A stretch of 13,930 nucleotides of DNA from a virus (lineage: Duplodnaviria; Heunggongvirae; Uroviricota; Caudoviricetes): IMG/VR virus record IMGVR_UViG_3300015157_000063, positions 1-13,930 of that record, one strand, 5' to 3'. Below are positions 7,322 to 9,079 of the stretch, in pieces. The first letter of the stretch is position 1. Every line of letters starts with the position of its first letter. Made by a program: the position numbers and the translations under genes. The notes below the pieces were generated by a model. It saw only the letters and a program-made list of their open reading frames with translations. It was not told the origin of the DNA and made no database searches.

Positions 7322-7411
7322 TCAGCATTCCTCCGTCACGTCGCATGGACAGCATCACCGCCTGCACCCGCTGGTCAATCAGTTGCACAAGGCTGCCCGC
7401 AGCTTCCGGCC

Positions 7412-9016
7412 CTATTCCTTCTGACCCAGCGCATTTTTACGCATGGACAGTGCCAGGGCATTGGTGCTGGACATCAGCCAGACCGCACCGGTGGGCTGCA
7501 GGTTTGCTGCCACAAACTGTCCAAACGCAGCCTCTGCATCCGCATCCGGGTTACCGGTTGATGCCGTGCCCTTCACATCATGGGTGATGGACGCCGGGGA
7601 GACATCTGCCACTGCGGCTTTTTTCGGGTCCACAAAGTCTGTATCCAGACGCGCCACCACCGCTTCCGCCAGCGCATTACGGACCAGTGCATCAGCAGCC
7701 GGACTGGAAAAACGGATCAATTCTTCCGTCAGTACCGCAATGGCCGACACCTTCGCATGACTGAAGGTGATGGATTCAAAATCAAACTTCGTCAGGGGTT
7801 TTGCCTTACCCTCACCCACCCAGCCGGCAGCACCGCCGGACACCTGGGCGTGCACACGGATATTGAACGGCACCTGACGAAGTGCAGGGATCCCGCCCTG
7901 ACCAAATCGCCCGATAATGGTCTGCGGACGCAGGTAATCAATAAAGTCCTGTGCGTATTCCTGATATTCAGACAGGCTGCCTGCCCACTGCGGATCCGTG
8001 GTGGTCCCCGCGCCCACTGCCGATTTCAGGACATGATGCAGACGACTGTCATCCGGATACTGACGACGGGCCACTTCCAGGGCTTCAGATCGGACGCCTT
8101 TAGCCGCAGCCAGCGATTTGGCAAAGCGGGCGAAGCCAATCCCCTTATCCAGTTTCTGCTCCACACGGATCACCGGCGCAGAAGCCACCGCGGCCACATT
8201 CCCGTTACCGGCCTGTTTCACCGGCTGCGCCGTGGCGGCCTTACCGGCTTCCAGTTCACGCAGGCGCTTCAGGTGCGCATCCACCTGACGGATTTCCGCT
8301 GCGGTGTTGTCGTAATGCTCTTCCTCCTCCACATCCAGCGTGCGCCCTTCCTCTGCGGCTTTGGTCATGACCTCCTCAAGGGAGGCTGCCAGCGCTGCAC
8401 GCTTGTTTTCAAAACTTTTAATCTGTTCGCCAATATTCATTATGGTCTTTTCCTTATGAAAAACGGTTGTTGACTGTGCCGCAGCGCCGGCAGAAGATGC
8501 GATTTTCACCACCGGTTTCCGGTTGCCGGACGCGGCAGAAAACGGGCGGTCGTAAGATTTAATGGTCCGGATGGTGCATTCCGCATTCGCGGGCACGGTG
8601 ACGGCAGACACCTCCATCAGTTCCCAGCGCAGAAAATGCAGTCCGCCTCCGTCCAGAAAGGTGTATTCATGGGGACGGAAGCCCACGGACAGCCCCCTGA
8701 CCAGCCCGGTCTTAATGGCCGCCCAGACCTCATCCAGCCGGGCAGCCAGTTGCGACGGCATATCCGGTACGGGCTTCACCAGTGTTGCCGTGATTTCCAG
8801 CCCTTCGCTGACCCGGCGCACCGTACACTGCCCCACCGGGCGGGAATGGTCATGCTGCCAGAGAAACGGGATCGCACTGCCAAACTCCGCGCCCTCCGGC
8901 TCCAGGATGTCACCATCCCGATCCGGAGAAGGCGTTGACGCAATCCCGGTGATCACTCGTTCATCCTCACTGAAGGATTTCACCGTCAGCAGGGAACAGG
9001 CCCGTTTAAGAGTCAC
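7412..9016 (-). CDS. fused prohead protease (S78, HK97 family) - scaffold-like coiled coil - HK97-fold major capsid protein; capsid domain probably C-terminally truncated
   Basis: N-terminus has protease motifs (GDILEPEGAEFG, WQHDHSRPVG, GLSVGF, EVSAVTVPANAEC); residues ~190-260 are a charged coiled coil; C-terminal ~250 aa are HK97-like capsid sequence ending about 20 aa after the VWLMSSTNALAL motif. GTG start with AGGAGG 5 nt upstream. Confidence 0.75.
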   Translation of the reverse strand: MTLKRACSLLTVKSFSEDERVITGIASTPSPDRDGDILEPEGAEFGSAIPFLWQHDHSRPVGQCTVRRVSEGLEITATLVKPVPDMPSQLAARLDEVWAAIKTGLVRGLSVGFRPHEYTFLDGGGLHFLRWELMEVSAVTVPANAECTIRTIKSYDRPFSAASGNRKPVVKIASSAGAAAQSTTVFHKEKTIMNIGEQIKSFENKRAALAASLEEVMTKAAEEGRTLDVEEEEHYDNTAAEIRQVDAHLKRLRELEAGKAATAQPVKQAGNGNVAAVASAPVIRVEQKLDKGIGFARFAKSLAAAKGVRSEALEVARRQYPDDSRLHHVLKSAVGAGTTTDPQWAGSLSEYQEYAQDFIDYLRPQTIIGRFGQGGIPALRQVPFNIRVHAQVSGGAAGWVGEGKAKPLTKFDFESITFSHAKVSAIAVLTEELIRFSSPAADALVRNALAEAVVARLDTDFVDPKKAAVADVSPASITHDVKGTASTGNPDADAEAAFGQFVAANLQPTGAVWLMSSTNALALSMRKNALGQKE

Positions 9017-9026
9017 ATCAGCCTCC

Positions 9027-9054
9027 TGAAAATAAAAAAACCGCCGGAGCGGTT
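9027..9054 (-). terminator. intrinsic terminator between TerL and the protease-capsid gene
   Basis: Minus strand AACCGCTCCGGCGGTT followed by TTTTTTTATTTT, then the protease Shine-Dalgarno. Confidence 0.55.
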
Positions 9055-9079
9055 CGTGATGGTTACAGTGTGAACAGGG

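What the first reader, a model, noticed from the sequence alone, without database searches (positions are those of the whole stretch)
7322..9079. Head module lacks a portal; protease and capsid are one ORF that abuts tail gene M
TerL is followed after 64 bp (containing a terminator and a Shine-Dalgarno) by a single 534-aa ORF combining an S78 prohead protease, a coiled-coil linker and an HK97-fold capsid domain. No portal gene is present between TerL and protease, where HK97-type modules always carry it. The capsid domain ends ~20 residues after its VWLM motif, and M starts 90 bp later with no connector, tail tube, chaperone or tape-measure genes. Either two further deletions occurred, or this is a non-canonical head module.
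Basis: partly seen in the sequence, partly recalled or inferred. Interest (0 to 1): 0.5.

Follow-up and report, generated by a model that had tools for sequence, protein, structure and literature searches.

The report
Deletion-truncated capsid gene in prophage remnant
One 9.3-kb deletion in a decaying E. coli prophage cut off the end of its fused protease-capsid gene and removed the portal, connector and tail-shaft genes, so the odd layout is ordinary prophage decay and not a new kind of virus head.

Summary
On the minus strand, TerL (9080-10741) is followed after 63 bp by a 534-aa ORF (7412-9016). That ORF carries a Peptidase_S78 domain, a helical linker and an incomplete Phage_capsid domain. 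Tail gene M starts 90 bp further on.

The cause is mundane. The window is 100% identical to a prophage remnant at ompW in E. coli TOE17. The same prophage at the same site in E. coli NCTC86, and close relatives in E2348/69 and in phages BP-4795 and phi330, carry this order: TerS, TerL, 645-aa protease-capsid fusion, 73-aa ORF, portal, connectors, tube, chaperones, tape measure, M, L, K, I, J.

In this family the portal natively lies downstream of the capsid gene. A single 9,264-bp deletion with 3-bp TAT microhomology at 7413-7415 joins capsid codon 534 to the last 33 codons of the tape-measure gene, and creates the TAG stop. That one event explains everything that is missing.

A second deletion (K to side tail fibre, 6,723 bp) and a third (early region) show advanced decay. 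RefSeq already marks both flanking genes as truncated pseudogenes. The fusion and the gene order are documented in plaque-forming phages. Interest is low.

The parts
10738..11301 (-). Terminase small subunit gene, intact
   Evidence: Pfam Terminase_2, E = 1.3e-8. PGAP WP_000958372.1, identical in E2348/69 and NCTC86.
9080..10741 (-). Terminase large subunit gene, intact (553 aa)
   Evidence: Pfam TerL_ATPase and TerL_nuclease. Annotated as terminase large subunit in TOE17.
9017..9079 (-). 63-nt TerL-capsid intergenic spacer, native to the phage family. It has a terminator-like hairpin (9055-9038) with a T run, and an AGGAGG Shine-Dalgarno (9027-9022).
   Evidence: Sequence, consensus scan. The same spacer is present in intact relatives; window 7413-13930 is 99.9% identical to NCTC86.
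7412..9016 (-). Truncated protease-scaffold-major capsid fusion gene. It encodes residues 1-534 of a 645-aa protein, and its TAG stop (7412-7414) was created by the deletion junction.
   Evidence: tblastn gives 100% identity to aa 1-534 of the E2348/69 645-aa protein. Pfam coverage is profile 38-186/280 against 38-279/280 for the intact protein. PHROG 617 coverage is 7-536/626 against 7-626/626. PGAP marks it 'incomplete; missing C-terminus'.
8507..9016 (-). Prohead serine protease (Peptidase_S78) portion of the fusion, about aa 1-170
   Evidence: Pfam PF04586 at aa 48-152. 40% identity to the stand-alone 212-aa prohead protease of Burkholderia phage vB_FUB47a.
8438..8440 (-). In-frame internal ATG (Met193) with AAGGA 10 nt upstream. 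This is the ancestral start codon of the capsid gene.
   Evidence: Met1 of the stand-alone vB_FUB47a capsid protein aligns to Met193 of the fusion, MTIAEKIK against MNIGEQIK. Sequence context. Use as a start site is inferred, not shown.
7415..8440 (-). Capsid gene portion: helical scaffold/delta-like N-terminus (about aa 193-290) and about three quarters of the HK97-fold domain (to aa 534). The last 111 aa are missing.
   Evidence: Alignment to the 444-aa vB_FUB47a capsid protein: fusion aa 534 falls at about residue 336 of 444. Pfam and PHROG profile coverage.
7413..7415 (.). Deletion junction 1: TAT microhomology shared by both parental sequences. 9,264 bp are missing relative to NCTC86 and E2348/69.
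   Evidence: Three-way nucleotide comparison and blastn breakpoints. The identical junction is present in 3 of 5,426 complete E. coli genomes.
7314..7415 (-). 3' remnant of the tail tape-measure gene (last 33 codons plus stop). This is the '90-bp spacer' of the finding.
   Evidence: tblastn places TMP aa 1048-1080 at window 7415-7317 with 100% identity. PGAP marks it 'phage tail tape measure protein, missing N-terminus'.
6980..7321 (-). Minor tail protein M gene, intact. Its own GGAGGA (7334-7329) and GTG start overlap the tape-measure stop.
   Evidence: Pfam Phage_min_tail, E = 8e-29. 100% identical to M of E2348/69. Sequence.
6282..6980 (-). Minor tail protein L gene, intact
   Evidence: Pfam Phage_tail_L, E = 1.4e-92.
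5786..6271 (-). Tail protein K (JAB/C40 peptidase) gene, truncated to its first 162 of 247 codons
   Evidence: tblastn places K aa 1-162 here. PGAP marks it 'missing C-terminus'.
5794..5796 (.). Deletion junction 2 (exact TG microhomology). 6,723 bp are missing, covering the K C-terminus, I, J, lom and the 5' part of the side tail fibre gene.
   Evidence: blastn and three-way comparison with NCTC86. The junction is present in the same three genomes only.
4234..5799 (-). Side tail fibre gene lacking its N-terminal part
   Evidence: Pfam Phage_fiber_2. PGAP marks it 'missing N-terminus'.

Best explanation
The region is the scar of one illegitimate-recombination deletion inside the late operon of a defective lambdoid prophage integrated at ompW in E. 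coli.

The ancestral phage belongs to the BP-4795 / 2851 / phi330 group of long-tailed lambdoid phages. These are classified as Marienburgvirus and Pankowvirus, and many of them are Stx-converting. Its native head-tail gene order is TerS, TerL, a protease-scaffold-capsid fusion (645 aa), a 73-aa ORF, portal (861 aa), head-tail connector, head closure, gp10-like, tail completion, tail tube, chaperones G/T, tape measure, M, L, K, I, J.

A 9,264-bp deletion between two TAT triplets joined codon 534 of the fusion gene to codon 1048 of the tape-measure gene. The join puts a TAG in the capsid reading frame. This leaves a 534-aa ORF that lacks the last 111 residues of the HK97-fold capsid domain, a 99-bp tape-measure stub, and then intact M and L.

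Shown: the junction, the content of the deletion, the truncation, the native gene order, and the fact that intact relatives make siphovirus particles.

Inferred: the mechanism was microhomology-mediated illegitimate recombination, the truncated product cannot build a capsid, and the element cannot form particles. It also lacks I, J and its whole early region.
For: - The window is 100% identical over all 13,930 bp to E. coli TOE17 NZ_CP069093.1.
- PGAP annotates the two genes flanking the junction there as pseudogenes: 'phage major capsid protein, missing C-terminus' and 'phage tail tape measure protein, missing N-terminus'.
- NCTC86 carries the same prophage at the same ompW/yciE site with an uninterrupted late region. 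The window aligns to it at 99.9% on both sides of a 9,264-bp gap. E2348/69 gives the same gap.
- The junction shows 3-bp TAT microhomology, and the stop codon arises exactly at the join.
- The window ORF equals aa 1-534 of the 645-aa protein with no substitutions.
- Profile coverage shows truncation: Pfam Phage_capsid 38-186/280 against 38-279/280, and PHROG 617 7-536/626 against 7-626/626.
- The order TerL, fusion, small ORF, portal is present in BP-4795 and phi330. Phi330 is a plaque-forming siphovirus with a 55-nm head seen by EM (PMC12502783).
- The same order, but with separate protease and capsid genes, is present in Burkholderia phage vB_FUB47a at 39% identity.
- Two more deletions in the same element show general decay: K to stf and the early region.
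Against: Nothing found contradicts it. Points not shown:

- That the truncated protein is non-functional. No structure or expression test was done.
- That the element is non-inducible.
- That the three genomes sharing the junction are independent of each other. They may be one clone.
Confidence: 0.96

Rival explanations
1. Two independent deletions: one removed a portal gene from between TerL and the protease, and another removed the region from the capsid C-terminus to the tape measure.
For: This follows the canonical HK97 order (TerL, portal, protease, capsid), from textbook knowledge. The same element did suffer other deletions.
Against: The TerL-to-fusion spacer and both flanking genes are collinear and 99.9-100% identical with intact prophages, and these have no portal at that position. 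The portal lies downstream of the capsid gene in E2348/69, NCTC86, BP-4795, phi330 and even a 39%-identical Burkholderia phage.
Confidence: 0.01
2. A genuine, functional portal-less or minimal head module, for example a satellite-like or gene-transfer-agent-like element that borrows the portal and tail from a helper.
For: TerS, TerL, HNH, a lysis cassette, M and L are intact. E. coli genomes usually hold several related prophages: the median is 3 places per genome matching window 6900-11400.
Against: - The capsid domain is cut at an arbitrary point by a junction that also cuts the tape-measure gene.
- Only 3 of 5,426 genomes carry the junction, against more than 1,100 with the intact arrangement.
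- The flanks are 100% identical to intact copies, so the event is recent and shows no adaptation.
- K, the side tail fibre and the early region are also broken.
Confidence: 0.01
3. The truncated protease-scaffold-capsid protein is retained because it is useful. For example, it could act as a dominant-negative subunit that poisons capsid assembly of superinfecting related phages.
For: The ORF keeps its native start, Shine-Dalgarno, protease domain, scaffold segment and about 75% of the capsid domain. The Q antiterminator gene is still present upstream. Related phages with 99% identical capsid proteins are common in E. coli.
Against: There is no sign of selection. The junction is rare (3 genomes), recent (no substitutions) and accompanied by other random-looking deletions. 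No experimental or comparative support was found.
Confidence: 0.03
4. Assembly artefact: the missing 9.3 kb is a mis-join between repeated prophage sequences.
For: E. coli genomes carry several near-identical lambdoid prophages, up to 18 places per genome. This is a classic source of mis-assembly.
Against: The identical junction, and the identical second junction, occur in three separately deposited complete genomes from different sources: human faeces in Myanmar, another human isolate, and marine sediment. The two sides share only 3 bp, which is not a repeat that could mislead an assembler.
Confidence: 0.01

Closest known systems
Head-tail module of long-tailed lambdoid E. coli phages BP-4795 (Marienburgvirus), 2851, 1717, YYZ-2008, JLK-2012, Stx2a_WGPS6 and vB_EcoS_phi330 (Pankowvirus), and the ompW prophages of E. 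coli NCTC86 and E2348/69
   Same: TerS, TerL, the spacer, the first 534 codons of the 'major head protein/prohead protease' gene, and M, L and K are 96-100% identical at the DNA or protein level. The prophage sits at the same chromosomal site as in NCTC86.
   Different: The window lacks 9,264 bp: the capsid C-terminus, the 73-aa ORF, the portal, four connector/completion genes, the tube, G/T and 97% of the tape measure. It lacks a further 6,723 bp covering the K C-terminus, I, J, lom and the stf 5' end.
Canonical HK97 head module (TerL, portal, gp4 protease, gp5 capsid with delta domain)
   Same: S78-family prohead protease, a Phage_capsid (HK97-fold) major capsid protein with an N-terminal helical scaffold-like segment, an HNH endonuclease next to the terminase genes, a gp6-like connector and gp10-like proteins in intact relatives.
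   Different: The gene order differs: the portal follows the capsid gene. Protease and capsid are one ORF. Both differences are native to the family and were not produced by the deletion.
Burkholderia phage vB_FUB47a head module
   Same: The same unusual order: TerS, TerL, protease, capsid, small ORF, portal, connector, head closure. Protein identity is 38-40%.
   Different: Protease (212 aa) and capsid (444 aa) are separate genes 13 nt apart. This shows that the E. coli fusion is derived and that Met193 is the old capsid start.
Protease-capsid fusion genes of Arthrobacter phage clusters AM, AU and AN and Rhodococcus phage RRH1; PHROG 4523 'major head and protease protein'
   Same: A single gene encodes both the capsid maturation protease and the major capsid subunit (PMC5513430; PHROG hit).
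   Different: The relationship is only distant at sequence level: PHROG 4523 matches at E = 1e-11 over aa 93-249. The hosts are different. In the general description in that paper the portal precedes the protease.
Cryptic lambdoid prophages of E. coli in general (for example the K-12 remnants DLP12, Rac and Qin; from general knowledge, not tested here)
   Same: A prophage that retains int/xis, Q, the lysis genes and scattered morphogenesis genes, but has lost essential blocks through internal deletions.
   Different: This is a different element at a different site (ompW). The decay is very recent, because the surviving DNA is still 99.9-100% identical to intact copies.

Membership tests
BP-4795/Pankowvirus-type protease-major capsid fusion protein (PHROG 617) | N-terminal Peptidase_S78 prohead protease domain | tested here: met
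   PF04586 at aa 48-152, E = 1.7e-8, 35.2 bits against a cutoff of 21.
BP-4795/Pankowvirus-type protease-major capsid fusion protein (PHROG 617) | Complete HK97-fold Phage_capsid domain reaching the C-terminus | tested here: not met
   Profile positions 38-186 of 280 only, against 38-279 for the intact 645-aa relative. PHROG 617 positions 7-536 of 626 against 7-626. 111 C-terminal residues are absent.
BP-4795/Pankowvirus-type protease-major capsid fusion protein (PHROG 617) | High sequence identity to family members over the shared length | tested here: met
   534 of 534 residues identical to E2348/69 WP_000173031.1. The intact protein is 98.5-99.8% identical to those of BP-4795, 2851, phi330 and others.
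BP-4795/Pankowvirus-type protease-major capsid fusion protein (PHROG 617) | Catalytic His/Ser of the S78 protease present | not tested
   Only a profile match and conservation of the HDHS-PVG and G-S-GF motifs with the vB_FUB47a protease were seen. No solved homologue was found to map residues onto.
BP-4795/Pankowvirus-type head-tail module | Synteny: TerS, TerL, fusion, small ORF, portal, connectors, tube, G/T, TMP, M, L, K, I, J | tested here: not met
   The window has TerS, TerL, a fusion fragment, a TMP stub, M, L and a K fragment only. The full order is present in relatives.
Canonical HK97-type head module | Portal gene between TerL and the prohead protease | tested here: not met
   Absent in the window, and also in all intact relatives examined, where the portal follows the capsid gene.
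Defective (cryptic) prophage | Integrated element bounded by a duplicated target, with an integrase | tested here: met
   A partial ompW copy lies at one end. Intact ompW, integrase and excisionase lie at the other.
Defective (cryptic) prophage | Loss or truncation of genes essential for particle formation, relative to an intact relative | tested here: met
   Three internal deletions: capsid to TMP, K to stf, and the early region. The intact reference is at the same site in NCTC86.
Defective (cryptic) prophage | Inability to produce infectious particles on induction | not testable with these tools
   This needs induction and plaque or EM assays.

The most novel reading that the evidence does not exclude
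The 534-aa protease-scaffold-partial-capsid protein is still expressed from the Q-dependent late operon. It acts as a dominant-negative subunit or decoy that interferes with capsid assembly of superinfecting BP-4795/Pankowvirus-type phages, including Stx-converting ones. On this reading the scar is an accidental superinfection-exclusion determinant.
Probability: 0.03. Interest if true: 0.5.

Novelty: already known. Interest (0 to 1): 0.07.

Why it matters
It matters little biologically. This is a recent, lineage-restricted deletion in one of the many lambdoid prophages of E. coli, and RefSeq already flags both broken genes.

Its use is as a calibration case:

- The rule 'portal always sits between TerL and the protease' is not universal. 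A widespread and medically relevant group of long-tailed lambdoid phages, many of them Stx-converting, places the portal after a fused protease-capsid gene.
- An apparently double anomaly (no portal, and a capsid gene abutting M) collapses to one deletion once the native order is known.
- ORFs that end exactly at a recombination junction are a signature of decay, not of design.

Tried and rejected
- Four literature searches for a paper that explicitly discusses the BP-4795-type protease-capsid fusion and the portal position found no such discussion. They did turn up the phi330 paper (PMC12502783), used.
- A fifth search led to the Arthrobacter paper on protease-capsid fusions (PMC5513430), read.
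- The original BP-4795 paper is not held in the library.
- A PDB sequence search with the protease part gave only chance hits. With the intact fusion it gave only one weak capsid hit, 9d9w at E = 0.0017. The lost C-terminus was therefore not mapped onto named HK97-fold elements.
- I deliberately did not spend the large protein-database searches or structure prediction. The nucleotide-level comparison with intact copies already settles the question, and the intact 645-aa protein could not be submitted without such a search.
- I could not scan the rest of the TOE17 chromosome for other portal genes. The tools give 50 kb per call and no per-accession filter. Trans-complementation therefore remains untested, but it cannot rescue a truncated capsid gene in an element that also lacks I, J and its early region.
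- A terminator as a regulatory novelty was rejected. The hairpin is native to all intact relatives, and terminator-like sites are not enriched in the region.

Full report
**Observation**

Every relevant gene lies on the minus strand.

- TerS is 10738-11301. TerL is 9080-10741 (553 aa) with Pfam TerL_ATPase and TerL_nuclease.
It holds a terminator-like hairpin at 9055-9038 with a T run, and an AGGAGG five bases before a GTG start.
- The ORF 7412-9016 encodes 534 aa. Peptidase_S78 matches aa 48-152, and Phage_capsid matches aa 386-531.
- The ORF ends 20 residues after VWLM.
- Minor tail gene M (6980-7321) starts 90 bp later, followed by L (6282-6980).
- tblastn with the whole set of head and tail proteins of an intact relative found no portal, connector, tube, chaperone or full tape-measure gene in any frame of the window.

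The description is therefore correct.

**What it is**

Megablast against complete E. coli genomes shows the window is 100% identical to E. coli TOE17. More than 1,100 other genomes match only from window 7413 rightwards. That places a breakpoint exactly at the stop codon of the 534-aa ORF.

In TOE17, PGAP already labels the ORF 'phage major capsid protein, incomplete, missing C-terminus'. It labels the following stretch 'phage tail tape measure protein, incomplete, missing N-terminus'.

E. coli NCTC86 carries the same prophage at the same ompW/yciE site with an unbroken late region. E2348/69 has a close relative. Their gene order is:

- TerS, TerL
- a 645-aa 'major capsid protein', which is the protease-capsid fusion
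- a 73-aa ORF
- an 861-aa portal (PF04860, E = 8e-81)
- gp6-like connector, head closure, gp10-like protein, tail completion
- major tail subunit, chaperones G and T
- a 1,080-aa tape measure
- M, L, K, I, J

**The junction**

- Window 7413-13930 aligns to NCTC86 at 99.9%, and window 5794-7415 at 99.9%. 9,264 bp of NCTC86 are absent between them. E2348/69 gives the same 9,264 bp.
- Both parental sequences read TAT at the breakpoint (window 7413-7415), which is 3 bp of microhomology.
- In the capsid frame, the intact gene reads ...Q K E Y P D M..., while the window reads ...Q K E then TAG. The stop codon is made by the join.
- The window protein equals residues 1-534 of the 645-aa protein with no substitution. 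The 90-bp 'spacer' before M is the last 33 codons of the tape-measure gene.
- Profile coverage confirms truncation. Pfam Phage_capsid covers positions 38-186 of 280 here and 38-279 in the intact protein. PHROG 617 covers positions 7-536 of 626 here and 7-626 in the intact protein.

**Why one deletion is enough**

In this phage lineage the portal is not between TerL and the protease. It lies downstream of the capsid gene. I checked this in five places:

- The prophages of E2348/69 and NCTC86.
- Phage BP-4795, whose GenBank record calls ORF56 'putative major head protein/prohead protease' and ORF58 'putative portal protein'.
- Phage vB_EcoS_phi330. It is plaque-forming and shows a 55-nm icosahedral head and a 145-nm flexible tail by EM (PMC12502783).
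- Burkholderia phage vB_FUB47a, only 38-40% identical. Its order is TerS, TerL, protease, capsid, small ORF, portal, connector.

The order is thus an old, conserved variant of the HK97-type module. The single deletion from mid-capsid to the end of the tape measure takes out the portal along with everything else.

**The fusion itself**

- In vB_FUB47a the protease (212 aa) and capsid (444 aa) are separate genes. Met1 of that capsid protein aligns with Met193 of the E. coli fusion (MTIAEKIK against MNIGEQIK).
- In E. coli, Met193 is still preceded by AAGGA at a Shine-Dalgarno distance. The E. coli gene is therefore a derived in-frame fusion.
- It is plausible, but not tested, that the capsid protein is also translated from the internal start. 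That would give a nested arrangement like lambda C/Nu3.
- Protease-capsid fusions are documented elsewhere: Arthrobacter phage clusters AM, AU and AN, and Rhodococcus RRH1 (PMC5513430), and PHROG 4523 'major head and protease protein'.

**State of the element**

- A second deletion of 6,723 bp, with exact TG microhomology at 5794-5795, joins K codon 162 to the middle of the side tail fibre gene. It removes the K C-terminus, I, J and lom.
- A third deletion joins a truncated DUF968 gene to a truncated exonuclease gene. It removes the whole early, immunity and replication region. Integrase and excisionase remain next to ompW.
- Both late-region junctions occur in the same three of 5,426 complete genomes: TOE17, AST46 and DLI.5a.
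- The surviving DNA is still 99.9-100% identical to intact copies, so the decay is recent and restricted to one lineage.

**Mechanism and consequences (inferred)**

- Microhomology of 2-3 bp points to illegitimate recombination, not site-specific or homologous events.
- The truncated product keeps the protease, the scaffold-like helix and about 75% of the capsid domain, ending at about residue 336 of 444 in the vB_FUB47a alignment. It lacks the C-terminal quarter of the capsid protein, so it should not form capsomers.
- Without a portal, connectors, tube, tape measure, I, J and the early region, the element cannot make particles.
- M keeps its own GGAGGA and GTG, so M and L could still be translated if the late operon is transcribed.

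**Rivals**

- Two separate deletions: excluded by collinearity of the TerL-fusion interval with intact copies.
- A functional portal-less module: excluded by the arbitrary cut through two genes and by the rarity of the junction.
- Assembly artefact: unlikely, because three separately deposited genomes share both junctions and the two sides share only 3 bp.
- Exaptation of the truncated protein, for example as a dominant-negative capsid poison: not excluded, but there is no support for it.

**Verdict**

This is an ordinary prophage-decay scar in a known phage family, already annotated as pseudogenes.

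Noticed in passing
window 5786-6271 and 4234-5799; junction 5794-5796: A second deletion of 6,723 bp joins tail gene K (first 162 of 247 codons) to the middle of the side tail fibre gene. It removes the K C-terminus, I, J and lom. It is shared by the same three genomes as the capsid/TMP junction.
   Followed up: yes
window 2161-2192 and 5248-5279, with a recombinase remnant at about 1933-2112: 32-nt inverted repeats (84% complementary; TTCCTGTAAACCGAGGT...) flank a 3.06-kb block. 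The block holds the variable 3' parts of two opposed tail fibre genes and two opposed tail-fibre-assembly genes. From memory the repeats resemble the crossover sites of Gin/Cin/Pin-type invertases. The adjacent recombinase gene is only a 180-bp pseudogene, so the switch is probably frozen unless an invertase acts in trans. NCTC86 carries different alleles in part of the segment.
   Followed up: partly
L006 2905-5333 (TOE17 2834904-2837332): A third deletion in the same prophage: a truncated DUF968 gene abuts a truncated 3'-5' exonuclease gene. The whole immunity, replication and early region is gone. Q, RusA, int and xis remain.
   Followed up: partly
window 8438-8440 (Met193 of the fusion ORF), AAGGA at about 8451-8455: An in-frame internal ATG with a Shine-Dalgarno-like AAGGA. 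It aligns with Met1 of the stand-alone capsid protein of a Burkholderia phage. The intact E. coli gene may therefore yield both a protease-capsid polyprotein and a separate capsid protein, a nested arrangement like lambda C/Nu3. This is untested.
   Followed up: partly
L002 10870-13455; L004 12279-14864; L003 11150-13896; L005 3875-6617: The portal of the intact relatives is 861 aa. The Pfam portal domain occupies only aa 54-382, and the remaining ~480 C-terminal residues have no Pfam family. In BP-4795 and phi330 the same stretch is annotated as two or three separate ORFs. These are either real frameshifts or sequencing and annotation differences.
   Followed up: no
window 10741 (TerL start codon): Several 'complete' E. 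coli chromosome records (DLI.5a, NR379, TUM10008) have coordinate 1 exactly at the TerL start codon of this prophage. The K-gene coordinates near 14,006 in EC931, EcPNK004 and MLI121 suggest the same. Automatic re-orientation software may have rotated the chromosome to a terL gene, not to dnaA.
   Followed up: no
window 11590-11955: An HNH endonuclease gene lies just upstream of TerS/TerL, as in HK97-like cos phages where an HNH protein assists terminase (from general knowledge). It is intact here and in all relatives.
   Followed up: no
window 687-834 and 1737-1883, flanking 1063-1731: Direct repeats of about 145 nt (88% identical), derived from tail-fibre-assembly gene fragments, bracket a class I SAM-dependent methyltransferase gene. 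The region has low GC (about 40%). This looks like a moron or insertion at the prophage end. It is also present in NCTC86.
   Followed up: no
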